Below are positions 7,450 to 51,314 of a stretch of 53,627 nucleotides of DNA, one piece after another. Made by a program: the position numbers and the translations under genes. The stretch lies in the IMG/VR virus record IMGVR_UViG_3300033407_000965, positions 1 to 53,627 of that record; one strand, written 5' to 3'. The notes under the pieces were generated by a model. That model was not told the origin of the DNA. It made no database searches and worked only from the letters and a program-made list of their open reading frames with translations. Positions within the stretch are counted from its first letter, which is position 1. Each line of letters starts with the position of its first letter. This DNA is from a virus (Duplodnaviria; Caudoviricetes).

Positions 7450-8591
7450 GTGGCGACGAAGAGCAAGGGCGCGAACAAAGGCACAAAGGGCAAAGCGAAG
7501 AAGCAGGCGGAGCGGACAAAAGCGTCAATGCCGGTCCCGCTGGTGATCCGTGAGGGTCACCGTCTGTTGATCGACGGCGCGCAGACCCGCGTAGTGCTGG
7601 AGACCAACTTCGACCTTCCGCACAACGCGACCTACCTGAACGCGTGGGGGTCGCCGCCGGGCACGTACCGGGCGAAGGAATTCGCTTGGTACGACCACTT
7701 TGAGATGTGCCTCGAGCGAGCGATGTGGGGTGCCGGATTGCCGAAGAAGCGTCCGGCCGAGCGGCGGACGCGGGAAGTGCCCGAGGTGCCGCTGGTGTGC
7801 ACGGCGATGCAGGACGGCTCGTTCCGGGTCGAGGCCGGCGACGACTTCATGCTCATCGGCGACAAGACCAAGGACGCGGCTGTAGAGGCGTGGCTCATCG
7901 GGCTGGTGATGAGGCGGGTCAAAGAGTGGATCGTCGCCCCGCCCGCGCGCCAGGCGGAGAAGGGGAAGAAGCGGCCGCGAGCGGCGAAGCCGACGAAGGG
8001 GGGAAACAACAAAGGCACAAAGGCACGGAGGCACGGAGGCACGGAGGCACAAAGGGCAAAGCGAAGAAGCACACGGTGCGGAGCTCGACGTTCCTGAATC
8101 CGGCGCTCGGCGTTGAGAACGATGAGCAAGGGTTGGCCACTACACCGGGAACGAAGCGGCCGTCGACACGCGGCGCTGGTCAGCGAGACGCAGCGACGAA
8201 GGGGATCAGTGTCGAGCAGGCCAAGTCGCTGCGGCCGGGAGATCTGGTCACCTGGAACCATGACCGGCTCGGGCCGATCAAGGCGACGGTCACCAAAGCG
8301 CCCAGCGGCGAGTCGTTTCGGGCAGCGGGCGGGGGCCAGAAGGCGAAGGTGCACCTCGAGCCGTCGGTCAAGATCGACGGCCGAGTAGGCGGGACAGGAA
8401 GCGCCGGCCCGCCGCCGTCGGATCATCCGCGCTGGGTGACGATTGGACGGATCGTGGCGATCAAGACGCAGAAGAGGGAAGGGAAGCAGGGACCAAGCAA
8501 GGTTCACCCGGCGAAACCACCGGCGGAAAGCGAGACGCCGGCGGAAGCGGGGTTCGATCCGGACGAGGACGACGTGGAGGCTGGACGGTGA
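7450..8591 (+). pseudogene. Lys-rich phage protein split by an 8-bp repeat frameshift (ORF 7450..8097 plus the downstream frame ending at 8591)
   Basis: Coding-like sequence switches frame exactly at five 8-bp units (8011-8050); removing one unit joins both parts. Confidence 0.7.
8011..8050 (+). repeat. 8-bp tandem array (AAAGGCAC)2(GGAGGCAC)3
   Basis: Read directly; the same flanks (AAC...AAAGGGCAAAGCGAAGAAGCA) occur with a single unit at 7474-7505. Confidence 0.95.
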
Positions 8592-10069: not shown

Positions 10070-10533
10070 ACCGGCGTTGTCGTGTGTGCGGATGTACGGA
10101 CGCGCGGCCTTGCGCGGTCGGCTGCGCCTGGCTGACCGCGGACCTCTGCACGGCGTGCGCGTGGATGGAGCCGCTGCTCGCGGAGGAGCGCGACGCGCTG
10201 GCCGAGGCGGGCGGGATCGCGGTCGGGTCGCTGGGCGCGTGGAGTCTGGCGGTCGCGCCGGCGTCAGTTACGAGTTTGAACGATGATGAGAACGATGATG
10301 AGGCGGGCGGGATCACGGTGCTGATATGGGTGCCGCATGCGGTGTCCACCGCGGGGCTGTTCACGCTGGGGCCGCCGGCGATGAGCCTGGGGCTGGGTGT
10401 CGGCGTCATCGCCAACCGTCTGCAGGACGTTGGGATCCCCTGGGAGCCGCCGGCGGACGATTGGGACGCGATGAAGGCCGGGATGATGTTGGCCAGCGAG
10501 CCGGCGGAGGAGGTGGCGGCGAAATGGGCATGA
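10066..10533 (+). CDS. Phage protein with N-terminal Cys-rich Zn finger
   Basis: CRVCGCTDARPCAVGCAWLTADLCTAC. Confidence 0.7.
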   Translation: MNRRCRVCGCTDARPCAVGCAWLTADLCTACAWMEPLLAEERDALAEAGGIAVGSLGAWSLAVAPASVTSLNDDENDDEAGGITVLIWVPHAVSTAGLFTLGPPAMSLGLGVGVIANRLQDVGIPWEPPADDWDAMKAGMMLASEPAEEVAAKWA

Positions 10534-11024
10534 CGCGGGAGGAGGTGCGGGCGGTGGTCATGGGGTGCATTCGGGAGATGCGCTGGAGAATGCAGCTCCA
10601 GCAGTGGGAGATCGACGTCGAGTATACGCGGCTGGAGGATGCTGGTGACCGCTGCACCATCGCGGACTGCAGTGTGACCCCCGGCTATCAACACGCCTTG
10701 GTGCGCATCGACCCGGAGCATTGCACCGACCCGGCGGGGGTGCAGCGGGCGCTGCGGCATGAGCTGCTCCACATCCTGCACGCCGATTTCATCACCGTCT
10801 TCGAGACCGCGGCGGAGGCGCTGCCGGCGGACGTGGAGCGTTGCGTACGCCACGTCTTCCACGTCGCCAAGGAATCCTTCGTCCGGCGAATCGAGAACCT
10901 GCTGGACTACGGCCTGGGCGAGTCACCGCAGCGCATGGCCAGGCCCATCGTGCCCGGCGAATACCCGAACGCGGTCCCGGTGACGGAGACGACGGCGGCC
11001 GACGAGACGGAGGCCAGTGGATGA
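10530..11024 (+). CDS. Zincin-like metallopeptidase domain protein
   Basis: HExxH motif in ALRHELLHILH, preceded by LQQWEIDV...ALVRID. Confidence 0.7.
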   Translation: MTREEVRAVVMGCIREMRWRMQLQQWEIDVEYTRLEDAGDRCTIADCSVTPGYQHALVRIDPEHCTDPAGVQRALRHELLHILHADFITVFETAAEALPADVERCVRHVFHVAKESFVRRIENLLDYGLGESPQRMARPIVPGEYPNAVPVTETTAADETEASG

Positions 11025-11230
11025 CGGAGCAGGAAAGGGACGAAGGGACGAAGGGACAGGGGGATCCTGCGGCGGCGCTGGCTGCGGAGCTGCGATGTCT
11101 GGCCGACATGCTCGAGGCCGACCCCCGGGGGGCGTGTGCGTTCGTGGTCGGGGTGGTGGAGCGGTTGGCCCGGCGGGCGACGTATGCCGCGGGAACTGAG
11201 CACGGAGAAAACGCGGAGGGCGGGGCATGA
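11021..11230 (+). CDS. Small hypothetical protein with an in-frame 8-bp repeat triplet near the N-terminus
   Basis: GGAGG RBS, ATGA coupling at both ends. Confidence 0.55.
   Translation: MTEQERDEGTKGQGDPAAALAAELRCLADMLEADPRGACAFVVGVVERLARRATYAAGTEHGENAEGGA
11034..11057 (+). repeat. 8-bp tandem array AAAGGGAC(GAAGGGAC)2
   Basis: Read directly; 24 bp, frame-neutral. Confidence 0.9.
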
Positions 11231-11445
11231 AAGGAGTCACGGCGGTGAAATCGGAAAAGGACTGGAAGGCCGAGAACGACGCCAACACGATCGCGGAGGC
11301 GGAGGCCATCAAGGCCGACAAGGAGCGGCTGGCCGGGGCGAAGAAAGCGGCCGCGAAAATGGCCAAGGAGCAGCGGGCCAGGGCCGACGGCTTGACCAAG
11401 CTCGCCGGGCGCAGGTCGGGTCGCGGTCGCTCGCGAAAACGCTGA
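11227..11445 (+). CDS. Small basic helical phage protein (EKDWKAENDANTIAEAEAIKADKERLAGAKK)
   Basis: RBS and ATGA coupling; directly upstream of terminase. Confidence 0.7.
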   Translation: MKGVTAVKSEKDWKAENDANTIAEAEAIKADKERLAGAKKAAAKMAKEQRARADGLTKLAGRRSGRGRSRKR

Positions 11446-11448
11446 TGC

Positions 11449-13149
11449 GTGAAGGTCCGGCTACCCAAACTCACCAAGCGGCAGCGCGAGCAGGTCCGCC
11501 GCCGGCGGGGATTGGACGCGGCGCAGCTGGATGAGTACCGGCGCTGCGCGCCCACGCGCGGGGCCTCGGGCTTCTTCTACTGGCTCCAGCACTTCTGCGT
11601 CATCTACGACTACGAGAAGAAGCGGCCGGTCAAGTTCGATCCCTTCGCCGGCCAGCGGCGCTTGATCCCCGACCTGGCCACGGGCGTGTGGCTGGTGATC
11701 CTGAAGGGGCGCCAGCTTGGGGTTACCTGGCTGATCGCGGCCTGGGCCCTGTACAACATCACGTTCCGAAGCACGTACAACGTCTCGGTGGTCTTTCAGC
11801 AGCTCGAGTACGCGTACGACTTCATCTGGCGCATCAAGTACATGTACGAGCGGCTGCCCCAGTGGCAGCGGAAGGCGATCACCGACTCGAACAAGCGTAC
11901 CCTCGGCTGGCGGGCGGACGGCAGCGATTGCCGCGTGCGGGCGTTCGCCGGTTCCCCGCGGGCCGGCCGGTCGCTGACCGGGGACTTGATCGTGCTGGAC
12001 GAGGCCAGCCGGATCCCGTACCTCGCGGACGTCATGCAGGCCCTCGAGCCGACGATCGAGGTCGGCAGCGGCCAGTTCATCCAGCTTTCGACGTCGGCCG
12101 GGCCGCAGGGGATCTTCTACGAGGTCTGGCAGGAGACGTACGGGGACTACGGCGAGCTGCTGGACGAGCGGGGCGTCGGGCCCTCGGGCTTCAAGCCGGT
12201 GTTCCTGCACTGGTCGGAGCGGCGGGGCCGGGACCACGAATGGTACGCCCGCGAGAAACGCCGCCTGGACCGCATCAGCCCGGTGGCGATGAAGCAGGAG
12301 CATCCCGACAACCCGCAGGAGGCGTTCGAGTTCGCCGCGGGGCGGGTGTATCCCCTGTTCACGCGCGAGCGCTGCATCGGCGACATCGAGATCCCGACGA
12401 CGGGCGAGCGCTACCGGGCGATCGACTGGGGTCAGTCGGCGTCGGCCCAAGTGTGCTTGTGGCTCGCGCATGTGCCTGGCCCGCCGGGGGTTCTCGTGTC
12501 GCCGAAGTGCCCCAACACGATCCGGGAGTTTTTCGCGTACCGCTACGACGACGAGCGCCCGGGCGAGGTCCTCAAAGTCGACGATCACTGCCCGGACGCG
12601 GTGCGCTACGCGGTGGTCACCTTCCGGCTGACCGGGCTGGTCTACGTGTATCGGGAGCTCTACATCAAGGATTCCGTGGCCCGCGGCTGGAACCCCATGA
12701 CCGAAATCGCGGAGATCCACGAGCTGTCCGGGTGGGAGCGGGCGGAGCCCAAGGAGAGCTACGCCTCGTGGGTGCGGGGCCGCCGCGGGGAGGCCTTCGA
12801 GGGGACCGTGGCAGACCGTTCCTGGCCGAAGATGATCGCCCTGTTCAACCTCCACGACCTCTACGTGCGGCCCCACGAGCCGATCCGTGGGAAAAAAGGC
12901 AAGAAGGGGCTGTTGACAGACCCGCCGCTGCGCGAGACAAAGGAGGGGATACGGCTGGTCAGCGCCTTGATCGAGGGGAGTGCGTGCCTGGACAGGTTGG
13001 TGGACGTGACGCGTGATGCGCAGGCGCTGACGCTACTGGCCGACCACGAGGGCCGGTCGACCCCGGGCGTGTCGCACAGTCTCAGTCACACCGCTCTGCT
13101 CGCCGCAGCGAAGCGACTCCGCAAGGCCAAGGCAAGGAGGACGCCATGA
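11449..13149 (+). CDS. terL: Terminase large subunit
   Basis: Walker A ILKGRQLGVTW, Walker B LIVLDEA, coupling motif LSTS, nuclease motifs AIDWG and DDHCPDAVRY. Confidence 0.93.
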   Translation: MKVRLPKLTKRQREQVRRRRGLDAAQLDEYRRCAPTRGASGFFYWLQHFCVIYDYEKKRPVKFDPFAGQRRLIPDLATGVWLVILKGRQLGVTWLIAAWALYNITFRSTYNVSVVFQQLEYAYDFIWRIKYMYERLPQWQRKAITDSNKRTLGWRADGSDCRVRAFAGSPRAGRSLTGDLIVLDEASRIPYLADVMQALEPTIEVGSGQFIQLSTSAGPQGIFYEVWQETYGDYGELLDERGVGPSGFKPVFLHWSERRGRDHEWYAREKRRLDRISPVAMKQEHPDNPQEAFEFAAGRVYPLFTRERCIGDIEIPTTGERYRAIDWGQSASAQVCLWLAHVPGPPGVLVSPKCPNTIREFFAYRYDDERPGEVLKVDDHCPDAVRYAVVTFRLTGLVYVYRELYIKDSVARGWNPMTEIAEIHELSGWERAEPKESYASWVRGRRGEAFEGTVADRSWPKMIALFNLHDLYVRPHEPIRGKKGKKGLLTDPPLRETKEGIRLVSALIEGSACLDRLVDVTRDAQALTLLADHEGRSTPGVSHSLSHTALLAAAKRLRKAKARRTP

Positions 13150-15433: not shown

Positions 15434-15499
15434 CAGGAGCTGGCCGCCCGGAATCGCGGCCGGGCGGCATGCGGCGCGCGTCACCGCGCTGCGCCAGTG

Positions 15500-15535
15500 A
15501 CGGGGCGCGGCCTTGATCGGTTCGCGCCCCGTTTT
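15500..15535 (+). terminator. Hairpin with short U tract directly upstream of the portal RBS
   Basis: ACGGGGCGCG (15500-15509) pairs with CGCGCCCCGT (15523-15532), followed by TTT. Confidence 0.4.
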
Positions 15536-15547
15536 CGTGGAGGCGAC

Positions 15548-17797
15548 GTGGTCCGGGATCGACGCGGTGATGTGGGTGACGCCAAGCCGATCTACGAGAT
15601 CGACTGGCGCAAGCCGGAGGCGATCCCGGACGTGGACCTCGTGGCCCTCGTCGAGACGCAGTACCGCGCCGGCAAGCAGCGCCGCTACGGCTGGGAGGCG
15701 CAGGCCGCGGAGCAGCTCGCCTGGGCGCGCGGCAACCAGCACCTGGTCTGGTCGCACGACGTGCGAGACCTGGTGCGGGAGGTGTTCGAGGAGAAGCCGC
15801 TGGAGTTTCGCAATCCGGTGGTGATTCCGAAGCTCAAGGGGGTCGTGCTCGGGTATCTGGGGATGACCATCGGGCACGCCCGGCCGAGCTGGATCGTGCA
15901 GCCGGCGACGCGGGACGACGACGACGTGGCCTCTGCGAACGTGTTGGGCAAGGTGCTGCACTGGTACTGGACCAAGGGCGGTGACCGAGGAACGCTGATG
16001 AAGTTGATCGACGGGCTGTGGATGGTCTTCTGCACCGGCGTGGTGTTCGCCAAGCCGACGTGGGACCCCACCCTCGGCGAGACCGACCGCTTCACCGCGG
16101 AAACGCTTCTCTCCGCGGGCGAGACGGTGGAGTCGGACAGTCAGCGGAAGAAGCTGTTGGACCGCTTCCGGCAGTATGTCCGGGGCTTTGGGCGGAAGAT
16201 GAGCGACGAGCAGGAGGACCTGGAGCTGCCGCGGGGCGACCTGGTGGTCGACTTCATTTCGGGGTTCGACATCACCGAGCCGCGGAACGTCCAGAACGTC
16301 AACGGCGCGCCGTGGATGATGGAGTCGCGGTTCCGATCCATCGAGCACCTGACCGAGCGTTACGGCGAAGCCGCGGACGAGGTCCAGCCGGACGAGGACA
16401 GCGAGGCCTACGACGCCCGCCGGCAGGAGCAGTACCGCGGCTGGCGGGATTACACCGGCAACGAGCCGGACGCGGTGCCCAGCGAGGAGGCTTTGACCCA
16501 CGAGTTCTGGCGGCCGCGGTCGCGCAGCGCGCCGGTCGGGGCGAAAATCGTGGTCGCCGACGGCAAGGTGCTCCACAAGGGGCCGCACCCCTACCTGCAC
16601 GGGCGGCTGCCGTTCATTCGGATCACCGAAATGCCCGACCCGGAGCACTTTAGGCCGGGCTGCTCCGTGCGCGACGCGATGTCGCTCCAGCGGGCCAAGA
16701 ATCATCAACGCAGCCAGCTCCACGGGCACCTCGAAACGACCGTCGATCCGAGGATCCTGGTCGAGAAGGAAGCGGGCATCCCGGACGACGCCTTCCTCAA
16801 GGGCCCGCGGCTGATCCCCTGCAAGGACAAGGACGCGGTCAGGGCCTGGGAGCCGCCCCATCCCCCGGCGTACATGGGCGACCTCGACCGGATGAACGAC
16901 CGCGACTTCGAGGACGTCACCGGGCTGCATCGGTCCAGCTACGGCGACACCGAGTTCGCTGGGCAGAGCGGCCGACACGCCCAGATGCTCCGGGAGGGGG
17001 ACGCCCGCCGGCTGTCGGTGGTGCGGCTCGGGCTGGAGCTTTCGATGGCCGCGGCCGGCCAGCAGATGGCGTGGCTGCTGTGGGAGTTCGTCAGCGTCGA
17101 GCGGAGCCTGACCATCACCGGCCCCAGCCGTCGGAGCGAGGTCGTGACGTTCAAAGGTCGCGAGGGCCTGAGCAGGAACGCGCCGTTCGGTCCGCACGAG
17201 TTCAACGTGGAGGTGCAGCTGGGCACCGAGCCGGACATGAACACCGTGCTGGGCAAGATCGAGCTGCTCAGCCGGTACAGGATCATCAACCCGGAGCGCG
17301 AGCAGGACCGGCTGATGGTGATGCGCTGGCTGGGTGAGCAGGTGCCCTCGGAGACAGACGAGGCGGCGAGCCACCGCGTGCTGGCCAGCGACGAGAACCG
17401 CCGCATGGCCCAGGGCGAAGCGCTGCGCGCCAACTACGGGGATGACGACCCCGTGCACCTGGAGGAGCACCTCCAGTTCACGACCACACCGGACTACCGG
17501 CGGGCCGCGGCGGGCAACACGGACGTCGAGCTCATCATGCAGATGCACCTGCGGCACCACATGGTACAGCGGGCGGACAAGGAGTTTCGGCCGATGGCGA
17601 TCGCCAAGGCGGTCCAGGCTCGGCTGGTGAGGGAATACGGGCTGGTCAGCGGCGGGAGCGCCCCCCAAGGGACCGGGGCGGCGGGAGCGACGCCGCGGCC
17701 GGCGGGCGGTCCCATGGCGCCCGGGCCCGGTGGCGCGGGAGGCGGCGGCAACGGCCGCATTGTCCCGCGGGCGCCGGCGGGCGCGAGGAGATTCTGA
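15548..17797 (+). CDS. Portal protein (P22/podovirus-like)
   Basis: About 750 aa between terminase and scaffold; VQPATRDDDDVASA, PYLHGRLPF, EDVTGLH...G...SG motifs; GGAGG RBS before GTG 15548. Confidence 0.88.
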   Translation: MVRDRRGDVGDAKPIYEIDWRKPEAIPDVDLVALVETQYRAGKQRRYGWEAQAAEQLAWARGNQHLVWSHDVRDLVREVFEEKPLEFRNPVVIPKLKGVVLGYLGMTIGHARPSWIVQPATRDDDDVASANVLGKVLHWYWTKGGDRGTLMKLIDGLWMVFCTGVVFAKPTWDPTLGETDRFTAETLLSAGETVESDSQRKKLLDRFRQYVRGFGRKMSDEQEDLELPRGDLVVDFISGFDITEPRNVQNVNGAPWMMESRFRSIEHLTERYGEAADEVQPDEDSEAYDARRQEQYRGWRDYTGNEPDAVPSEEALTHEFWRPRSRSAPVGAKIVVADGKVLHKGPHPYLHGRLPFIRITEMPDPEHFRPGCSVRDAMSLQRAKNHQRSQLHGHLETTVDPRILVEKEAGIPDDAFLKGPRLIPCKDKDAVRAWEPPHPPAYMGDLDRMNDRDFEDVTGLHRSSYGDTEFAGQSGRHAQMLREGDARRLSVVRLGLELSMAAAGQQMAWLLWEFVSVERSLTITGPSRRSEVVTFKGREGLSRNAPFGPHEFNVEVQLGTEPDMNTVLGKIELLSRYRIINPEREQDRLMVMRWLGEQVPSETDEAASHRVLASDENRRMAQGEALRANYGDDDPVHLEEHLQFTTTPDYRRAAAGNTDVELIMQMHLRHHMVQRADKEFRPMAIAKAVQARLVREYGLVSGGSAPQGTGAAGATPRPAGGPMAPGPGGAGGGGNGRIVPRAPAGARRF

Positions 17798-21758: not shown

Positions 21759-22445
21759 ATGAAGCTCGACGAACTGCGCCGCCGAACGCTGGAGTACCTC
21801 GACGATCCCAAAGGGGACCGCTGGGCGGAAAACGGCGACTACACGTCGCTGGACATCCTGATCGACGACGCCATCGACGAGCTCGTGGCCGAGACGGCGC
21901 TGACCGGAAAGCTCTGGAACGTCGCCCCGACCTTCTTCACCTTCACGGTGACCTCCGCCCAGCAGGCCTACGTGCTCGAGGACGGGTCGCTGCCCGAGGA
22001 CCAGAAGGTGCGCAAGATCATCGAGGTGGAGCGAACCGACGTGGCCCGGCCGTACACCCACACGCTCATCCCATTCTCCGAACGCAACCGCGGGGTGACC
22101 GACCCACATTACCCGACGCTCTCGTCGGGGACACGCTCGGCGCTCTCCGCCTATCGCCGCAGTGATGGGCGGTGGGTCGTCGCGTTCGTGGACAAGCAGC
22201 CGGACCCGCAGACGATCCGGGTGTGGTACGAGCCCTGCCGCAGGAAGCTGGTCGATGCCGCGGAGGAGCCCATGCAGGTGCCGCGATCCTGGCACAAGCT
22301 CATTCCGGTCGCGGCGGCGGTGCTTGGGAAGATCACCACCAACCGCGACCCCTCGGGCCTGCTGATCATTCGCGAGCGCTGGCTGCATCAGATGCGGATG
22401 GACCTGGACGACCTGACCAGCGCGACGCGGAGCCGGGCGATCTGA
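21759..22445 (+). CDS. Head-tail adaptor (podovirus tail tubular protein A-like)
   Basis: MKLDELRRRTLEYLDD...LDILIDDAIDEL; PMQVPRSWHKLIPVAAA; position. Confidence 0.7.
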   Translation: MKLDELRRRTLEYLDDPKGDRWAENGDYTSLDILIDDAIDELVAETALTGKLWNVAPTFFTFTVTSAQQAYVLEDGSLPEDQKVRKIIEVERTDVARPYTHTLIPFSERNRGVTDPHYPTLSSGTRSALSAYRRSDGRWVVAFVDKQPDPQTIRVWYEPCRRKLVDAAEEPMQVPRSWHKLIPVAAAVLGKITTNRDPSGLLIIRERWLHQMRMDLDDLTSATRSRAI

Positions 22446-24577
22446 TGCCCAACGAGCTGAGCCAGTTCATGGGGCCCTTTCTGGGGCTGAACACGAGCTT
22501 CAACGCCCGCAACGTGGATGCGCGTTTCGCCATCGAGGCGGACAACGTCCTGCTTTCGGACGGTGCGGTCCGCCCGCGTTGGCCGTTTCGCACGCTGAAG
22601 CAGAATCTGCGGCTCTTCGACAATCCCTTTGCCGAGGAGTGGGTTGTTTCGCTGTTTCAGTGGCAGTCCCCGCTGGTCGGGCTGGTCACGCTCTACAAGA
22701 GCGTCGTGCTGTTCGCCGGCGCCCTGTACACCCTGATGGGCGCACTGCGCGCCGACGGCACGACGCAGATCCTGTGGATTGACACTCGGTCGCCTTTGGC
22801 GGTCAAGCAGGTCGCGGTCGTGCCGACCTGGGTCGTGCACAACGAACGGGTGTATGTACTGGATGCGGGCGGTCTGTCCCCGCGCGAGGGAAGACTCATC
22901 AGCACGGACGGCACGCCGGAGGGCACCGCTCTCGTCGGCCTCGATACGCCGCGCGGACTAGTCATCAGGGAGGCAGACGCGGAAGCGGCGCCGGCGGGCG
23001 TTGTAGGGCTGGGCCCGCAGTACTATGCGTACGCATTTACCCTGGCAGACAAGTCGCGGGGCGTGGAAAGCAACGCGCAAACGCGTGGGACGGAACCGCA
23101 CGGGGGCAGTCTCCTTGAATTCGACGGCGCTCCGTTCGCGGGCAGTGGCGGAATGGTCGTCCGGTTCGTGTTCGATCCGGGGGCTATCCAGCCCAACGAA
23201 CGGGTCGACCGCATCCGCATGTACCGCAAGAACGTGACGCTGAGCCAGCCCTTCTACCGGCTGGTCGGGGACGTTGCGGTGGGGTCGGGTTCCGAACTGA
23301 TCACCTGGCGGGATCCCGGCGACAGCAACGAAGCCCTCAGCAGCGACGAGACCGGGCCGTACGCGCCGAGCAAAAACGGGGTGCCGCGCGGGGCGTCGGT
23401 CGGCGCGGTCTATCAGGGCCGAATGTTCTACAACGACACGCGGCAGGGCAATGAGAACCTTCTTCGCTTCTCGGCGGTGGACGTCCCCGACCACGTCGAC
23501 CCCGACGACTACGAGGTGCTCAGCGGGGACGAGGTCGCCGGCGTGACCGGCATGGCGGAAATGGCCGGGCAACTGGCGGTGGGCAAGCGCCGGGCGGTGT
23601 GGATCCTCAGCGGGGCGATCCTGACCCATACCAACGAGACGATCGCGACGGGTGCGCACCCGCCGGTGTCGAGCCACACCCTCTACCGCACCAAGTCCAA
23701 GGTCGGCCCGGCGACCTATCCGGGGCCGAACGGGTTCATCGTTTGCGGTCACCCGCCCGTGGTCTACTTCCCGTCGGAGAGCGGGTTCTACGGCTTCGAC
23801 GGCGTGGACGAGCGGATGGTGTCGGACGCGATCAAGCCGACGTGGGCGCGGTTCGCCCACGTGCAGGCCCTCGGGGCGCTCCCCGAGCGGTCGGACGTCG
23901 GCCAGAACCTGACCCACGCGGTGGATACGCTCAACGAGGTGCTGTACCTGTGCCTCGGTGCGCAGACGGCGGGTGAGCCCGAGGTGTTGGCGTACCACTA
24001 CGGGCTCAACCGCGGCGACGGCGTGGGCGGTTGGACAACCCTGCGCGGCGACGGCGACGCGATTCTGTGTGTGACCCGTCCGGTGGCGGAGGAGCTCAAC
24101 GGGCAGTCGTACTACAGCCCCTTGCTCGTGGCGGACGCCGCGTCCCGGGCCCTGATCGCCACCGATCGCGCGACCCTGCCCGTGCCCGCGTTCCGCTACC
24201 GAACGGGGTGGCTTCCGATTCTGGAGGGCCGTCGAGCGCACCTCTATGAGATCAAGTGGCTGCACGGACGGCCGTCGCCGGCGGACGGCGTGCCGACCGT
24301 GCCGGTGGCGACGGGCCGCGAGGTGGAGCGCGCCGGGGCGGTTACCCGCCTCCCGCGGCGGCTGCGTTTCGCGGTGGCGTTCAACGGGTTCTTCTCGGAC
24401 GAGGCCGCGACCATCCGGCCGGTGGGCACGCGGACGTTCCAGCGCCAACCCGTGCGGCGGGAGGTGACCGACGTCAGCCTCTCGGTCGCCGACGCCGGCG
24501 ATCCCAACGTGGTGTGGGACCGCGAACTGGCCCTGCTGGGCTGGGCGCTGGAGGGTGAGCCGGCCGGGGAAAGTTAA
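22445..24577 (+). CDS. Tail nozzle/stabilisation protein (P22 gp10 / T7 gp12-like beta-propeller)
   Basis: FLGLNTS N-terminus, YQGRMFY...LRFSAV, VYFPSESGFYGFDG repeats; position after adaptor. Confidence 0.75.
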   Translation: MPNELSQFMGPFLGLNTSFNARNVDARFAIEADNVLLSDGAVRPRWPFRTLKQNLRLFDNPFAEEWVVSLFQWQSPLVGLVTLYKSVVLFAGALYTLMGALRADGTTQILWIDTRSPLAVKQVAVVPTWVVHNERVYVLDAGGLSPREGRLISTDGTPEGTALVGLDTPRGLVIREADAEAAPAGVVGLGPQYYAYAFTLADKSRGVESNAQTRGTEPHGGSLLEFDGAPFAGSGGMVVRFVFDPGAIQPNERVDRIRMYRKNVTLSQPFYRLVGDVAVGSGSELITWRDPGDSNEALSSDETGPYAPSKNGVPRGASVGAVYQGRMFYNDTRQGNENLLRFSAVDVPDHVDPDDYEVLSGDEVAGVTGMAEMAGQLAVGKRRAVWILSGAILTHTNETIATGAHPPVSSHTLYRTKSKVGPATYPGPNGFIVCGHPPVVYFPSESGFYGFDGVDERMVSDAIKPTWARFAHVQALGALPERSDVGQNLTHAVDTLNEVLYLCLGAQTAGEPEVLAYHYGLNRGDGVGGWTTLRGDGDAILCVTRPVAEELNGQSYYSPLLVADAASRALIATDRATLPVPAFRYRTGWLPILEGRRAHLYEIKWLHGRPSPADGVPTVPVATGREVERAGAVTRLPRRLRFAVAFNGFFSDEAATIRPVGTRTFQRQPVRREVTDVSLSVADAGDPNVVWDRELALLGWALEGEPAGES

Positions 24578-26505: not shown

Positions 26506-27093
26506 ATGGCGATCATCTCTGGAGCACCGACCGGGGCAGCGGAGCGCATGGCCGCCCTCGTCTACGGCGACGCGCAGAGCCGCCGGGGGCTGGGCTTCAA
26601 CGCCCAGCTTGCGGCCCTGGCGGAGCTCAACCGCAAACGGGAAATGCTCCGTCGTTCACTGGCCGAGCGGCAGGCGGACCGGGAACGGCAGAAGGCCGCC
26701 GCGGCGGCGGAAGGTGGCGATGCTGGGGCGTGGGGCGCTGGCGCCGGTGCGGCGACGGCGCTGGTCCTGTCGCCTTTCACCGGCGGAGCGTCCCTGGCAG
26801 CGCTGCCGGCGCTGGCCGGCGCCGGCGGAGCCATCGGGGGGGCGATCGACGGGCCGCAGGGCGCGTACCAAGGCGGGCAGCTCGCCCGCGGTTTCTCGTC
26901 GCTGCAGGAGGTGTGGCCTTGGGAATTGAACGACAACTACGAGCCGATGAAGGCAACGCCACCGAGTGGCGGGAACGCGGGTGCAGGTACCGCCGGCCCG
27001 CCGGATAAGAAACCGCCCGCCGGCCCGCCGGATAAGAAACCGCCCGCCGGCCCGGGCGGCAAGAACGGCAAGAAGGACCCGTGGGGCTATTGA
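26506..27093 (+). CDS. Ejection/pilot-type protein with glycine-zipper hydrophobic segment
   Basis: GAWGAGAGAATALVLSPFTGGASLAALPALAGAGGAIGGAI. Confidence 0.7.
   Translation: MAIISGAPTGAAERMAALVYGDAQSRRGLGFNAQLAALAELNRKREMLRRSLAERQADRERQKAAAAAEGGDAGAWGAGAGAATALVLSPFTGGASLAALPALAGAGGAIGGAIDGPQGAYQGGQLARGFSSLQEVWPWELNDNYEPMKATPPSGGNAGAGTAGPPDKKPPAGPPDKKPPAGPGGKNGKKDPWGY
26990..27054 (+). repeat. 27-bp in-frame tandem repeat (AGPPDKKPP x2 plus partial)
   Basis: CCGCCGGCCCGCCGGATAAGAAACCGC twice, then 11 bp of a third copy. Confidence 0.9.
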
Positions 27094-27094
27094 C

Positions 27095-28249
27095 ATGGGC
27101 ATCGTCGATCCCGCCACCATGAAACCGTACGTTCTCGCCCGCGCGCTGCCCAAGGGCGCGGGTGAGATCGCGGCGGAGGACCCGCTCTACCGCCAGGCGA
27201 TGCTGGACGTGGCCACGGAGCGGATGACCGCGGAGGCCGACGCCGCGCGTCCGACGATGATCGGACCCGAGACGGTGCCTCGGCTGCCGGAGCGGCCGAG
27301 CTTCGGGCCGGTGATGTCGAGGCGGCAGTTCGTGCAGCAGCACTTCCCGGACGTCGTCAACCAACGGCTGGTGCCGCGGGGCACCAACCAGCGGGTGGAG
27401 CAGGCGTACGCGGAGTACGTGGCCCGCGAACAGATGGGCCGCAGCCGGGCGGCGGACACCTGGGCCTCCGACGTGGACGCCATGCTCCGCCGGGAGAACC
27501 TCATCACCCGCCGCGACGAGCTCCGCGCCCGGCGAACACAGCCGCCGTCGGCGCGCGAGGCCCTGACCGAAGGGGCGGCGGCGGCGGCCCGGGCGGCGAA
27601 TCCGAAGGACCCGATGGGCGCTTACGGGGCGTTCCAGGCCGCAGGACGAGCGCCCGCGAAACCAGCCTCCCCGGCGGCCGTGCTGAGCGACAACGCGGCA
27701 CAGGCGGCCATGCAGGCCCATCCCGAGGACCCTGGCGCGGCCTACGCCCAGTTCAAGGGGCAGGGCCGGGCGCCGAGCGAGGCGAAGGTGCTCCCGGACA
27801 AGGACATCGGGGAGGCCCTGTTCGGCATCGACGTGGGCGGGGCCCGGGTGCCGGGCATGATCGACCAGGCCCGGGAGGACCCGATCCTGGGGTTTGCCAA
27901 AATGGCACGCTGGTTCCAGGAGCGCCGGCAGGCGATGACCGGCGACCAGCGCGAGAAAGTCGCCCAGCTTGTGGACCGGATGCGGCCGACCCCGGAGACG
28001 CTGCAGCAAGCCTACGAGCAGGGCTACTTCGAGGATCCACAGGTGGTGCAGGAGCTTCTGACTGAGGACGAGGCAGGCAAGCTCGGGGCGAAGCGCTTCC
28101 TGCGCGGCCCGAGCGAGCAGGCGGTCCAGAAGGCCTACGTTCGCGCCCTGAAGCTCATCCTGACTCCGCAGCAGCAGCGGCAGATCGTGGAGGAGGCGGA
28201 GAGGCGAGGGACGAAGGGACGAAGGGACGGAGGCACGGAGGGAGGGTAG
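27095..28249 (+). CDS. Internal virion / ejection protein
   Basis: Helical A/R/Q-rich; between pilot protein and giant gene. Confidence 0.65.
   Translation: MGIVDPATMKPYVLARALPKGAGEIAAEDPLYRQAMLDVATERMTAEADAARPTMIGPETVPRLPERPSFGPVMSRRQFVQQHFPDVVNQRLVPRGTNQRVEQAYAEYVAREQMGRSRAADTWASDVDAMLRRENLITRRDELRARRTQPPSAREALTEGAAAAARAANPKDPMGAYGAFQAAGRAPAKPASPAAVLSDNAAQAAMQAHPEDPGAAYAQFKGQGRAPSEAKVLPDKDIGEALFGIDVGGARVPGMIDQAREDPILGFAKMARWFQERRQAMTGDQREKVAQLVDRMRPTPETLQQAYEQGYFEDPQVVQELLTEDEAGKLGAKRFLRGPSEQAVQKAYVRALKLILTPQQQRQIVEEAERRGTKGRRDGGTEGG
28205..28244 (+). repeat. Heterogeneous 8-bp array CGAGGGAC(GAAGGGAC)2 GGAGGCAC GGAGGGAG
   Basis: Read directly; spans the gene 3' end and supplies the RBS of the next gene. 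Confidence 0.85.
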
Positions 28250-46017: not shown

Positions 46018-46091
46018 GCGCCGGTAGCTCAGGTGGATAGAGCATCGGATTTCTAATCCGACGGTCGCAGGTTCGAGTCCTGCCCGGCGCA
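46018..46091 (+). tRNA. tRNA-Arg (anticodon TCT); CCA not encoded
   Basis: Cloverleaf: acceptor GCGCCGG/CCGGCGC, D arm GCTC/GAGC, anticodon arm TCGGA-TTTCTAA-TCCGA, T arm GCAGG-TTCGAGT-CCTGC. Confidence 0.96.
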
Positions 46092-46125
46092 TCGAAAAAA
46101 GCGGTTTTTCCTCGCCGTGACCGGC

Positions 46126-46158
46126 TTTGTCGTCTTTTTGTCGTCTTTTCGTCGTCAC
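46126..46158. repeat. Three tandem 11-bp repeats, candidate integrase arm-type sites
   Basis: TTTGTCGTCTT, TTTGTCGTCTT, TTCGTCGTCAC between tRNA and integrase stop. Confidence 0.65.
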
Positions 46159-47228
46159 CCGACCACCTCTCGGCATCGTTCCACGGCCGCCCGCAGGTCC
46201 GCCGCGTCCGCCCTGGCGTAGTGCTTCATCGTCGTTTCGAGGTTGGCGTGACCGGCCAGCCGCATAATCACCTTGGGCGACACGCCCGCGGCAATCCATG
46301 CGCTGATAGCGGTCCGCCGCAGGTCGTGGACGGTCAAGAGCCTGCACCCGGGCGCTTTGGTGTGCTTCAACTTGCCCTTGGGCGGTTTGCCGTCCGCCGT
46401 CGCGCGGATGCGCCGCCACTCCCGGTAGTAGTTCGGCCTCATCGACGCGAACGGCCCCGGATCCCGCATGGTCGCCATCCGCAGCTTCTCGATTGCGTTC
46501 ACCACGTGCTCGGTCAGCGGAATCTCGCGGGCGTCGTGGGTTTTGGTCTTGATGAACCGCAGGCGCGGCTCTTGCTTCTTGTCGAGATACACGCGGTCCC
46601 AGGTGAGGTTGAACAGCTCGGAACACCGCGAGCCGGTCGCCAATGACGTGATGATGAACGTCCGCCATTGCTGGCCGCACAGGGCCTCGGCATGGTGCAG
46701 TAGCGCCGCCTGTTGCTCCGGGGTCGCCGTCCGAATCACCGGCGCCTCGATCGGCTCCCAAGTCCAGCCGTCGTCGAAGGGCGTCCGCCCCGCGTACCCA
46801 CGACGTACCGCCATGCGGCAGGCCCGCTTGACGTACCTCACGTGCCGATTGATGGTCGCCGGTTTCAGGCCGTCCTTGCGAAGCTGCGCGACGTACCGCT
46901 CGACCATCGCGAACGTCACGTCTTTCGGCGAGCGCGGCCCGCATACCTCACCGAAACGGGTGAGTACCTGCCGGGCCGCCACGCGGTTCGCCTCACCCGC
47001 GATAGCGTCCACGTGGCCGTCAACGAATGCATGCCAGTCGATGCGCCGCACGTCGCGGAAGGTGCCGGCGTTCAGCTTTTCCTCCAGCAACGACGCCTCG
47101 CGTGCGGCCCGCTTGCGGTCGGTGCCGACGGCTCGATTGCGCCGTTTCCCGGTGGCGGGGTCATACCACCGCAAATGGTAGCTCGCCCTGCCGTTGTACG
47201 TCCGCCTGCAAACCGCAACGCCGCTCAT
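46155..47228 (-). CDS. int: Tyrosine recombinase / phage integrase
   Basis: Catalytic R (TGSRCSEL), K (IKTKT), HxxR (HDLRRT), H (GHAN), Y (KHY); N-terminal arm-binding region YHLRWYDP. Confidence 0.95.
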   Translation of the reverse strand: MSGVAVCRRTYNGRASYHLRWYDPATGKRRNRAVGTDRKRAAREASLLEEKLNAGTFRDVRRIDWHAFVDGHVDAIAGEANRVAARQVLTRFGEVCGPRSPKDVTFAMVERYVAQLRKDGLKPATINRHVRYVKRACRMAVRRGYAGRTPFDDGWTWEPIEAPVIRTATPEQQAALLHHAEALCGQQWRTFIITSLATGSRCSELFNLTWDRVYLDKKQEPRLRFIKTKTHDAREIPLTEHVVNAIEKLRMATMRDPGPFASMRPNYYREWRRIRATADGKPPKGKLKHTKAPGCRLLTVHDLRRTAISAWIAAGVSPKVIMRLAGHANLETTMKHYARADAADLRAAVERCREVVG

Positions 47229-47277
47229 GGCTTGGGCTCCGGTGGATTGGGTTGAACAGCGCGACACCATACCGCCA

Positions 47278-50669: not shown

Positions 50670-50682
50670 CTCGGCCGCGAGG

Positions 50683-50785
50683 TGCGAAGGTGCGAAGCTT
50701 TGCGAAGCCTTTTCCGGTTAACCCTAAGAGTTTTGCCTCGCGAGCGCAATACGGAAGAACCTTCGCATACCTTCGCAGCTTCGCA
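50683..50785. repeat. Mirror-symmetric iteron array, candidate replication origin
   Basis: TGCGAAG at 50683, 50691, 50701 and its reverse complement CTTCGCA at 50761, 50771, 50779. Confidence 0.8.
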
Positions 50786-51314
50786 GGTAAAGGTGGGGCG
50801 GGAGGCGTCGCAGCCGCCCAGCCCAAGCCCGCCGGCCCCGATCGCTGTCGTAGTCCCTCGACGGTTGTAGCAGTCCGCCTCAAACGCGCGAACGGGCCCA
50901 GAGCCCCGGCACGCCACGTCCGATTGACAATCGGGTGGCACAACCGGCCCTGGAAGCCCTCGGACGACGATCCGGCCGTATTGCCATCCAGGCGGCCCGC
51001 CAGCCTAGCGCCACGGGCCGATCGGCCGTTTGGTGGGGTGCCGTAGGGGTCCGGGCCGTCACAGGCCGTTTATGGGCTTCCTACGGCCGTTCAGGCAAGG
51101 TCCGATATTGACCACTTTGTTGCGTTGCGCTAGGGGATTTGTTAGGGTCGCCGACCGCCTGCCCTTGAAACCGAGCCGGAAACGCCACTTTTATCGGGAC
51201 GCACTTTGTGAAACCGGCCGCGTGTTAGGGTCACCGCGGACGGCCACCGGATTCGGCCCTGGAACCCCGCCCCGGCCCCGCAAACGCGGTTTCGGGCTGC
51301 CTAACAGGTACCGA

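What the first reader, a model, noticed from the sequence alone, without database searches (positions are those of the whole stretch)
7450..8591. Second gene broken exactly at an expanded 8-bp array, with the unexpanded copy preserved in the same gene
Seen: AAC-AAAGGCAC-AAAGGGCAAAGCGAAGAAGCA (NKGTKGKAKK) occurs at 7474-7505 with one unit. At 8008-8071 the same flanks enclose five units (AAAGGCAC x2, GGAGGCAC x3). The extra 32 bp shift the frame; 1 or 4 units restore one protein (369 or 377 aa) that continues into the domain-like SLRPGDLVTWNHDRLGPIKATVTK region. This is internal evidence that the array grew from a single seed. As at 29958, 1 or 4 units is the in-frame state.
Basis: seen in the sequence. 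Interest (0 to 1): 0.8.

Follow-up and report, generated by a model that had tools for sequence, protein, structure and literature searches.

The report
Prophage gene split by 8-bp repeat slippage
An unknown-function prophage gene is cut in two because a run of 8-base repeats holds one unit too many, and a copy of the same gene with one unit fewer, reading as one intact protein, exists in another public assembly.

Summary
Positions 8011-8050 hold five octamers (AAAGGCAC x2, GGAGGCAC x3). Their flanks recur around a single unit at 7474-7505.

The window is a provirus record. Frame 1 (7450-8097, 215 aa) runs into the array. Frame 0 (8052-8591) carries the coding signal straight after it.

P0007, from another assembly, equals the window's 198-aa prefix plus its 179-aa suffix with no other residue changed. 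The two alleles differ only by one 8-nt unit.

The five-unit, split form is the common one. It appears in 9 contig sightings, against 1 for the intact form, and in contigs of 3 of 4 sequencing runs laid.

The protein has no relatives and no known family.

Best reading: one gene disrupted by slipped-strand gain of one unit in a hypermutable octamer repeat. It may be reversible, but switching is not shown.

Three related arrays lie in the same prophage, at ordinary gene junctions.

This is a new member of a known kind, of moderate interest.

The parts
7450..8097 (+). Frame-1 ORF of the five-unit allele. It encodes 215 aa: 198 native residues plus a 17-residue out-of-frame tail (EAQRAKRRSTRCGARRS), ending at TGA 8095-8097.
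   Evidence: Codon log-odds are +0.56 and GC3 0.87 for 7450-8010 in this frame. The tail 8050-8094 scores -1.05 with GC3 0.40.
7474..7505 (+). N-terminal copy of the basic 'tag' (NKGTKGKAKKQ), with one AAAGGCAC unit between the same flanks.
8011..8050 (+). Octamer array: AAAGGCAC x2 plus GGAGGCAC x3. One GGAGGCAC more than in the intact allele.
8051..8071 (+). Right flank, identical to 7485-7505. It reads KGKAKK in frame 0.
8052..8591 (+). Frame-0 continuation: 179 aa plus stop at 8589-8591. It is identical to residues 199-377 of P0007.
   Evidence: Frame-0 log-odds are +0.53 and GC3 0.93 for 8052-8096, and +0.22 with GC3 0.78 for 8076-8588.
8076..8078 (+). The only ATG/GTG/TTG codon I read in frame 0 between the array and the C-terminal half. 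Gene callers used it for the 171-aa P0002. No SD-like core lies within 30 nt upstream.
11034..11057 (+). Related array (AAAGGGAC, GAAGGGAC x2) in the N-terminal codons of the gene starting at ATG 11021.
28205..28244 (+). Related mixed array (GAAGGGAC and GGAGGCAC units) in the C-terminal tail of gene 26966-28249, just before GTG 28251.
29958..29986 (+). Related array (GAAGGGAC x3.6) in the C-terminal tail of gene 28251-30005, just before SD plus ATG 29996.

Best explanation
Positions 7450-8591 are one prophage gene of unknown function. Its intact allele encodes 377 aa: a basic Lys/Gly-rich N-terminal tag, a domain of about 150 aa, a basic linker that repeats the tag, a C-terminal domain of about 100 aa, and an acidic tail.

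The linker holds an imperfect octanucleotide repeat. In this window the repeat carries one extra GGAGGCAC (five units instead of four), most likely gained by slipped-strand mispairing during replication. Because 8 is not a multiple of 3, translation leaves the native frame after residue 198. It adds 17 foreign residues and stops at 8095-8097. The C-terminal 179 codons remain intact but have no ribosome-binding site of their own.

Shown:
- the array;
- the frame switch at the array;
- the otherwise identical four-unit allele;
- the predominance of the five-unit allele in public assemblies.

Inferred:
- slippage as the mechanism;
- the intact form as ancestral;
- reversibility (4 <-> 5 units), which would make this an ON/OFF contingency locus and not plain decay. 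I put adaptive switching at about one in four.
For: 1. A natural in-frame allele exists. The 90% cluster of the 215-aa protein holds 7 distinct sequences, one of them the 377-aa P0007. P0007 equals the window's prefix of 198 aa plus its suffix of 179 aa, which makes 377 with 0 other differences. The alleles therefore differ by one 8-nt unit only.

2. Coding signal. Frame 1 is positive up to 8010. Frame 0 is positive from 8052, including the 8 codons before GTG 8076 (+0.61, GC3 0.88). The frame-1 tail is strongly negative.

3. GTG 8076 has no GGAG/GAGG core within 30 nt. The starts at 7450, 8588, 11021, 17801, 28251 and 29996 have one at -9 to -16.

4. The five-unit form is not a one-off error.
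- Five of the 7 cluster sequences carry its out-of-frame tail, on 1+5+1+1+1 = 9 contigs. One of them (P0005) also has a point substitution.
- In 3 of 4 runs laid, from different studies (X1, X4, X5), phage-matching contigs show three GGAGGCAC units with 0 mismatches.

5. Four arrays of related octamers sit in the prophage, giving 6 pattern matches against 0 expected. Multi-locus hypervariable octamer repeats are known in Brucella 'HOOF-Prints' (PMC1183211, passages read).
Against: - The four-unit allele rests on a single contig from one assembly. I could not fetch it, so a collapsed repeat in that assembly cannot be excluded.
- No raw reads were on offer. All 23 listed runs are kept as contigs, and 0 of 4 laid runs had a contig bridging the whole array. 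Within-population heterogeneity and switching are therefore untested.
- In X1 and X4 the left contig runs unbranched to 8049. This argues against an abundant four-unit subpopulation in those runs (my reading).
- The five-unit form dominates the contig sightings and appears in runs listed for 2019, 2020 and 2025. That fits a fixed lesion as well as a switch.
- The other three arrays sit at true gene junctions, which gives the two-cistron rival some weight.
- The 21 nt after the array are an exact copy of the N-terminal tag, so their frame-0 codon bias may be inherited and not selected in place.
- With no homologues, conservation cannot arbitrate.
Confidence: 0.72

Rival explanations
1. Two cistrons are the working arrangement. 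The array is a junction element between gene A (7450-8097) and gene B (GTG 8076-8591), as at the other three arrays. The 377-aa form is then a rare fusion variant or an assembly collapse.
For: - At 11034, 28205 and 29958 the related arrays coincide with real gene junctions and frame changes.
- In other viral contigs, by eye's print-out, many such arrays lie between a stop codon and the next SD/start (for example L126, L154, L156).
- Gene callers made a 171-aa protein from GTG 8076 on 5 contigs.
- The five-unit form is the commoner one.
Against: - No SD-like core lies within 30 nt of GTG 8076. The last GGAGG ends 28 nt upstream.
- Gene A's tail after the array has non-coding codon usage (-1.05, GC3 0.40), while frame 0 looks coding from 8052, before the GTG.
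- Reading, I found no stop in frame 1 and no ATG/GTG/TTG start in the approach to the array (about 7950-8010).
- An uninterrupted 377-aa ORF exists.
Confidence: 0.15
2. Programmed ribosomal frameshifting. Ribosomes shift -1 at or after the array, stimulated by the three internal GGAGG motifs, so the five-unit allele still yields the full-length protein.
For: Three SD-like GGAGG motifs lie in the mRNA just upstream of the needed shift. From recall, internal SD-like sequences stimulate frameshifting in dnaX and prfB.
Against: - Reading, there is no X XXY YYZ slippery heptamer in frame 1 at 8040-8060. The codons are GCA CAA AGG GCA.
- No downstream structure: the fold of 8005-8150 is no more stable than shuffles (z +0.71; 150 of 200 shuffles fold at least as well).
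- The needed shift is -1, whereas a hungry AGG codon would favour +1.
- An allele that needs no shift exists.
Confidence: 0.03
3. The five-unit count is a sequencing or assembly artefact and the gene is really intact.
For: Tandem repeats can be mis-assembled. Contigs of the laid runs break at 8021-8049.
Against: - The frameshifted C-terminus recurs in 5 distinct sequences on 9 contigs from two sources, including a variant with a substitution.
- Contigs of 3 runs from 3 studies read three GGAGGCAC units without mismatch.
- The 40-nt array is shorter than typical reads.
- The contig breaks are explained by many other similar arrays in the same metagenomes. Depth in the array bin is 40-410, against about 0-20 beside it.
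Confidence: 0.03

Closest known systems
SSR-driven phase-variable (contingency) genes, as in Campylobacter, Neisseria and Haemophilus. Search listing and abstracts seen: PMC11868660, PMC6321876, PMC4235727.
   Same: - An intragenic tandem repeat whose unit length is not a multiple of three.
- Gain or loss of one unit toggles the reading frame.
- Alleles are otherwise identical.
   Different: - The unit is an imperfect octamer with only three perfect copies, not a long homopolymer or tetramer tract.
- The gene sits in a prophage of an uncultured soil/sediment bacterium and has no known function.
- Switching rate, reversibility and within-population mixtures are not shown.
Brucella HOOF-Prints, hypervariable octameric tandem repeats at eight loci (PMC1183211, passages read).
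   Same: The same 8-bp repeat family occurs at several loci of one genome, with copy number differing between close relatives.
   Different: - A different unit.
- Here variation was seen at one locus (8011). For the product of 28251-30005, which ends in the 29958 array, both full-length members are 584 aa. The other two loci gave no look-up result.
- Here the change breaks a reading frame.
Octanucleotide SSR upstream of hmwA in Haemophilus influenzae biogroup aegyptius (PMC3309571, passage read).
   Same: An 8-nt repeat unit whose copy number varies between strains.
   Different: That repeat lies in a promoter, with 12-15 copies. This one lies inside a coding region, with 4-5 copies.
Paired octanucleotide repeat sites in Geobacter metallireducens (PMC2700814, figure-legend passages read).
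   Same: Tandem octamers on opposite strands of intergenic DNA. This resembles the inverted array pairs I saw in other genomes.
   Different: - A different consensus (GTTGCTYN).
- They are proposed regulator sites.
- No inverted partner of the arrays was found in this window.

Membership tests
SSR contingency locus (slipped-strand phase variation) | Tandem array of short identical units inside the ORF | tested here: met
   Five octamers at 8011-8050, three of them perfect GGAGGCAC.
SSR contingency locus (slipped-strand phase variation) | Unit length is not a multiple of 3, so one unit shifts the frame | tested here: met
   The unit is 8 nt. Frame 1 changes to frame 0 across the array.
SSR contingency locus (slipped-strand phase variation) | Natural alleles that differ only in unit number | tested here: met
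   P0007 (377 aa) against the window: 198 + 179 residues identical, with an 8-nt difference. The evidence is a single contig.
SSR contingency locus (slipped-strand phase variation) | Mixed unit counts within one population; high, reversible switching | not testable with these tools
   Only Logan contigs were on offer, and none bridged the array (0 of 4 runs).
SSR contingency locus (slipped-strand phase variation) | Phenotypic ON/OFF consequence | not testable with these tools
   The protein is an ORFan with no family hit and no usable model (pLDDT 37.9).
Programmed -1 ribosomal frameshift site | Slippery heptamer X XXY YYZ in the incoming frame | tested here: not met
   The frame-1 codons at 8047-8058 are GCA CAA AGG GCA (read).
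Programmed -1 ribosomal frameshift site | Downstream stimulatory RNA structure | tested here: not met
   The fold of 8005-8150 has z +0.71 against shuffles.
Programmed -1 ribosomal frameshift site | Two-frame layout conserved among relatives | tested here: not met
   The only other allele is in frame. No other relatives were found.
Multi-locus octameric VNTR (HOOF-Print-like) | Same octamer family in tandem at several loci of one genome | tested here: met
   Four loci, giving 6 matches to three consecutive RRAGGSAC units against 0 expected.
Multi-locus octameric VNTR (HOOF-Print-like) | Copy number varies between close relatives at these loci | tested here: inconclusive
   - Variation at 8011.
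- For the product of 28251-30005, which ends in the 29958 array, both full-length members are 584 aa; the other two of the 4 cluster members are fragments.
- The proteins at 11021 and 26966 were not in the collection.

The most novel reading that the evidence does not exclude
The four purine-rich octamer arrays of this prophage may be one case of a broader, undescribed class. In this class, hypermutable RRAGGSAC-type spacers sit between stop codons and the next ribosome-binding site, or in terminal and linker codons, in phages and in Planctomycetota, Gemmatimonadota and Verrucomicrobiota genomes. Unit gain and loss would let phages fuse, split or silence neighbouring reading frames, giving a phage 'phasome'. 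In-frame expansions would become the Lys/Gly/Thr/Arg-rich tags seen at 7450-7510 and 7990-8075.
Probability: 0.12. Interest if true: 0.65.

Novelty: new member of a known kind. Interest (0 to 1): 0.4.

Why it matters
Repeat-driven frame switching is a textbook adaptation tool of host-adapted pathogens. It is rarely documented in prophages of uncultured environmental bacteria, and rarely with 8-nt units.

Here a prediction made from raw sequence alone (four units give 377 aa) was matched exactly by a natural allele. That makes the locus a clean, testable case.
- Spanning reads from the listed runs could show whether the phage population mixes ON and OFF forms.
- If it does, this ORFan would be flagged as a gene under fluctuating selection.
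- It would also suggest that the related arrays at other junctions of the same phage deserve the same test.

Tried and rejected
Relatives
- Both halves and the large terminase against viral contigs gave no relative.
- P0007 against genome contigs gave none.
- A gapped locus pattern on metagenome contigs gave 0 matches.
- The word-based searches found only the protein's own cluster.
- The exhaustive search with the C-terminal half found a 51-aa fragment of itself and one weak hit, P0009. P0009 is a SpaA/Cna-B repeat protein with 33% identity over 38 residues, amplified by its repeats. I judged it spurious.

Function
- Pfam, PHROGs and NCBIfam gave no family hit; the PDB sequence search gave no match.
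- AlphaFold2 without an alignment gave pLDDT 37.9, so no fold search was run.
- The ESM Atlas gave no feature hits. It gave low-TM structural neighbours (SH3-like for residues 251-341, HicB/UPF0150-like for 28-171) on a model of pLDDT 0.41. These are leads only.

Reads
- No RNA holder was listed.
- No contig bridged the array.
- The joints at 8050->8013 and 8054->11032 have short sides and probably come from other arrays.

Host
- A DegT-like flank protein matched five candidate genomes at 33-36% identity for the best hit in each of four, and 45% over a shorter stretch in the fifth. This was uninformative.

Is the octamer family special?
- Three consecutive RRAGGSAC units gave 36 viral loci.
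- The reversed unit gave 40. It is not an independent control, because GGAGGCAC is a rotation of its own reversal. Of its 161 units, 114 were CACGGAGA or CACGGAGG.
- A scrambled unit gave 15. The enrichment is therefore only about 2.4-fold.

Other
- Rfam found nothing at the arrays.
- A literature search for the repeat strings gave 3 papers, of which 2 were listed. Both listed ones (cell migration; HIV and complement) are irrelevant.
- Supplementary files were not asked for.

Full report
**What is in the sequence**

The window is a 53,627-bp provirus record. It holds a large terminase at 11449-13149 and a P22-like portal at 15497-17797. Host-type genes lie at 43.3-46 kb, a tRNA-Arg(TCT) at 46018-46091, and then a tyrosine integrase and a P4/D5-type primase.

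The flagged region lies about 3.4 kb upstream of the terminase. One search shows the array exactly as described:
- AAAGGCAC at 8011 and 8019;
- GGAGGCAC at 8027, 8035 and 8043;
- AAC before the array and AAAGGGCAAAGCGAAGAAGCA after it.

The same flanks enclose one AAAGGCAC at 7474-7505. TRF finds the array. The 29-nt string of unit plus flank occurs twice, against 0 expected. Alignment shows that weaker similarity extends some 10-15 nt further on both sides. So a basic Lys/Gly/Thr-rich 'tag' is present twice, once at the N-terminus and once mid-gene.

**The break**

ORF 7450-8097 (215 aa) is in frame 1. A second open frame runs to 8591 in frame 0.

I trained a codon log-odds score on confident genes of this prophage. 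It is positive in frame 1 up to the array (+0.56, GC3 0.87 over 7450-8010). It is positive in frame 0 from 8052 onward (+0.53, GC3 0.93 over 8052-8096; +0.22, GC3 0.78 over 8076-8588). The frame-1 tail after the array looks non-coding (-1.05, GC3 0.40). The native reading therefore changes frame at the array.

**The natural intact allele**

The exact-sequence look-up of the 215-aa product returned a 90% cluster of 7 distinct sequences:
- Five carry the same out-of-frame tail: P0001, P0003, P0004, P0005 and P0006, on 1+5+1+1+1 contigs. P0005 also has one substitution.
- One is the 171-aa product that gene callers made from GTG 8076 (P0002, 5 contigs).
- One, P0007, is 377 aa and sits on a single 47-kb contig.

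P0007 shares its first 198 residues with the window's frame-1 ORF (to nt 8043). It shares its last 179 residues with the frame-0 reading from nt 8052. That makes 198 + 179 = 377 with no other difference. I could not fetch that contig, so an assembly collapse there cannot be ruled out.

**How common is each form**

All 23 listed sequencing runs are kept as contigs, not reads. I laid four of them.
- In X1 and X4, a left contig runs without mismatch to 8049 and a right contig starts at 8021.
- In X5, a contig starts at 8025.
- All three therefore read three GGAGGCAC units.
- X6 has no phage contig there.
- No contig bridges the whole array (0 of 4 runs).

Depth in the array bin is 40-410, against roughly 0-20 beside it. 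Many other contigs in those metagenomes therefore carry similar arrays, which also explains the contig breaks. In X1 and X4 the left contigs do not branch at 8042, where a four-unit allele would diverge. I see no sign of an abundant four-unit subpopulation in those runs. This is an inference from contig ends, not a read count.

**Can the C-terminal half be made on its own?**

Reading, GTG 8076 is the only ATG, GTG or TTG in frame 0 after the array. It has no GGAG/GAGG core within 30 nt. Six confident starts in this prophage have one at -9 to -16.

I found no slippery heptamer in the incoming frame. The RNA around the array folds no better than shuffles (z +0.71). Programmed frameshifting is therefore unlikely.

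**What the protein is**

It is an ORFan.
- Pfam, PHROGs and NCBIfam gave no family hit, and the PDB sequence search gave no match.
- Two word-based searches of 5.8 billion proteins found only its own cluster.
- An exhaustive HMMER search with the C-terminal half found only a fragment of itself and one repeat-amplified weak hit.
- Structure prediction failed (pLDDT 37.9).
- Atlas neighbours are low-confidence leads only.

The function is unknown. The doubled basic tag and the acidic tail suggest nucleic-acid or protein binding. That is inference only.

**Context: a family of arrays**

Three consecutive RRAGGSAC units occur at four places in the prophage, all on the + strand. This gives 6 matches against 0 expected.

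The other three arrays sit at ordinary gene junctions:
- 11034 lies in the first codons after ATG 11021.
- 28205 lies in a C-terminal tail, 8 nt before GTG 28251.
- 29958 lies in a C-terminal tail, 10 nt before SD plus ATG 29996.

For the 584-aa product that ends in the 29958 array, both full-length cluster members are 584 aa. The 55-aa downstream product is called on 7 contigs. So I do not see a second broken gene at 29958. These junction positions are the main support for the two-cistron rival.

Many are Planctomycetota, Gemmatimonadales and Verrucomicrobiota, often with several arrays per locus. Some arrays have a reverse-complement partner nearby.

In viral contigs the pattern hit 36 loci, against 15 for a scrambled unit. 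A reversed-unit 'control' hit 40, but it turned out to sample the same family by rotation. The unit family is therefore common and only modestly enriched.

**Verdict**

This is one gene disrupted by gain of one unit in an octamer repeat, with a natural intact allele. It belongs with known repeat-driven frameshift and VNTR loci:
- SSR phase variation (abstracts of PMC11868660 and PMC6321876);
- Brucella HOOF-Prints (PMC1183211, passages);
- the octanucleotide hmw repeat (PMC3309571, passage).

Whether it switches back and forth in the population is open and needs spanning reads.

Noticed in passing
L003-L122 (e.g. L040, L060, L095, L014, L023): RRAGGSAC-type octamer arrays with mixed units occur in at least 120 loci of many phyla, heavily Planctomycetota, Gemmatimonadales and Opitutales. 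Several arrays often share one 8-kb locus. They are usually just after a stop codon. Some are followed within about 30-60 nt by the reverse-complement array, which would form a long hairpin.
   Followed up: partly
L159-L198 (e.g. L161, L166, L191, L192): A near-invariant motif...TCAC CACGGAGGCACGGAGACACGGAGA AA..., recurs on both strands, up to three times per contig, in many unrelated viral contigs. It looks like a conserved site and not a free-running repeat.
   Followed up: no
window 50679-50787: In the integrase/primase island right of the tRNA, tandem GAAGGTGC-like units face their reverse complement (CCTTCGCA...) across about 60 nt, between divergent ORFs.
   Followed up: no
window 46118-46156: Directly after tRNA-Arg(TCT) lies an 11-nt tandem repeat (TTTGTCGTCTT x2.8), next to the integrase gene 46155-47270(-). 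It is possibly an attachment or arm-type site region.
   Followed up: no
window 29996-30260: After the 29958 array, the coding signal runs in frame 2 for the 55-aa ORF (29996-30163). It moves to frame 1 only near 30240, although the 3104-aa ORF is listed from ATG 30013. The true start of the giant gene is unclear.
   Followed up: partly
window 11017-11445: Between gene 10326-11024 and the large terminase, the coding signal changes from frame 2 (60-aa ORF 11017-11199) to frame 1 (72-aa ORF 11227-11445). This may be two small genes or a split small-terminase-like gene.
   Followed up: no
L158 9071-10786: The window's 801-aa protein (22172-24577) has a 31%-identical relative over 640 aa in another array-bearing viral contig. 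It was the only tblastn link (1 of 10 window proteins queried) to the 211 loci held (L003-L213).
   Followed up: no
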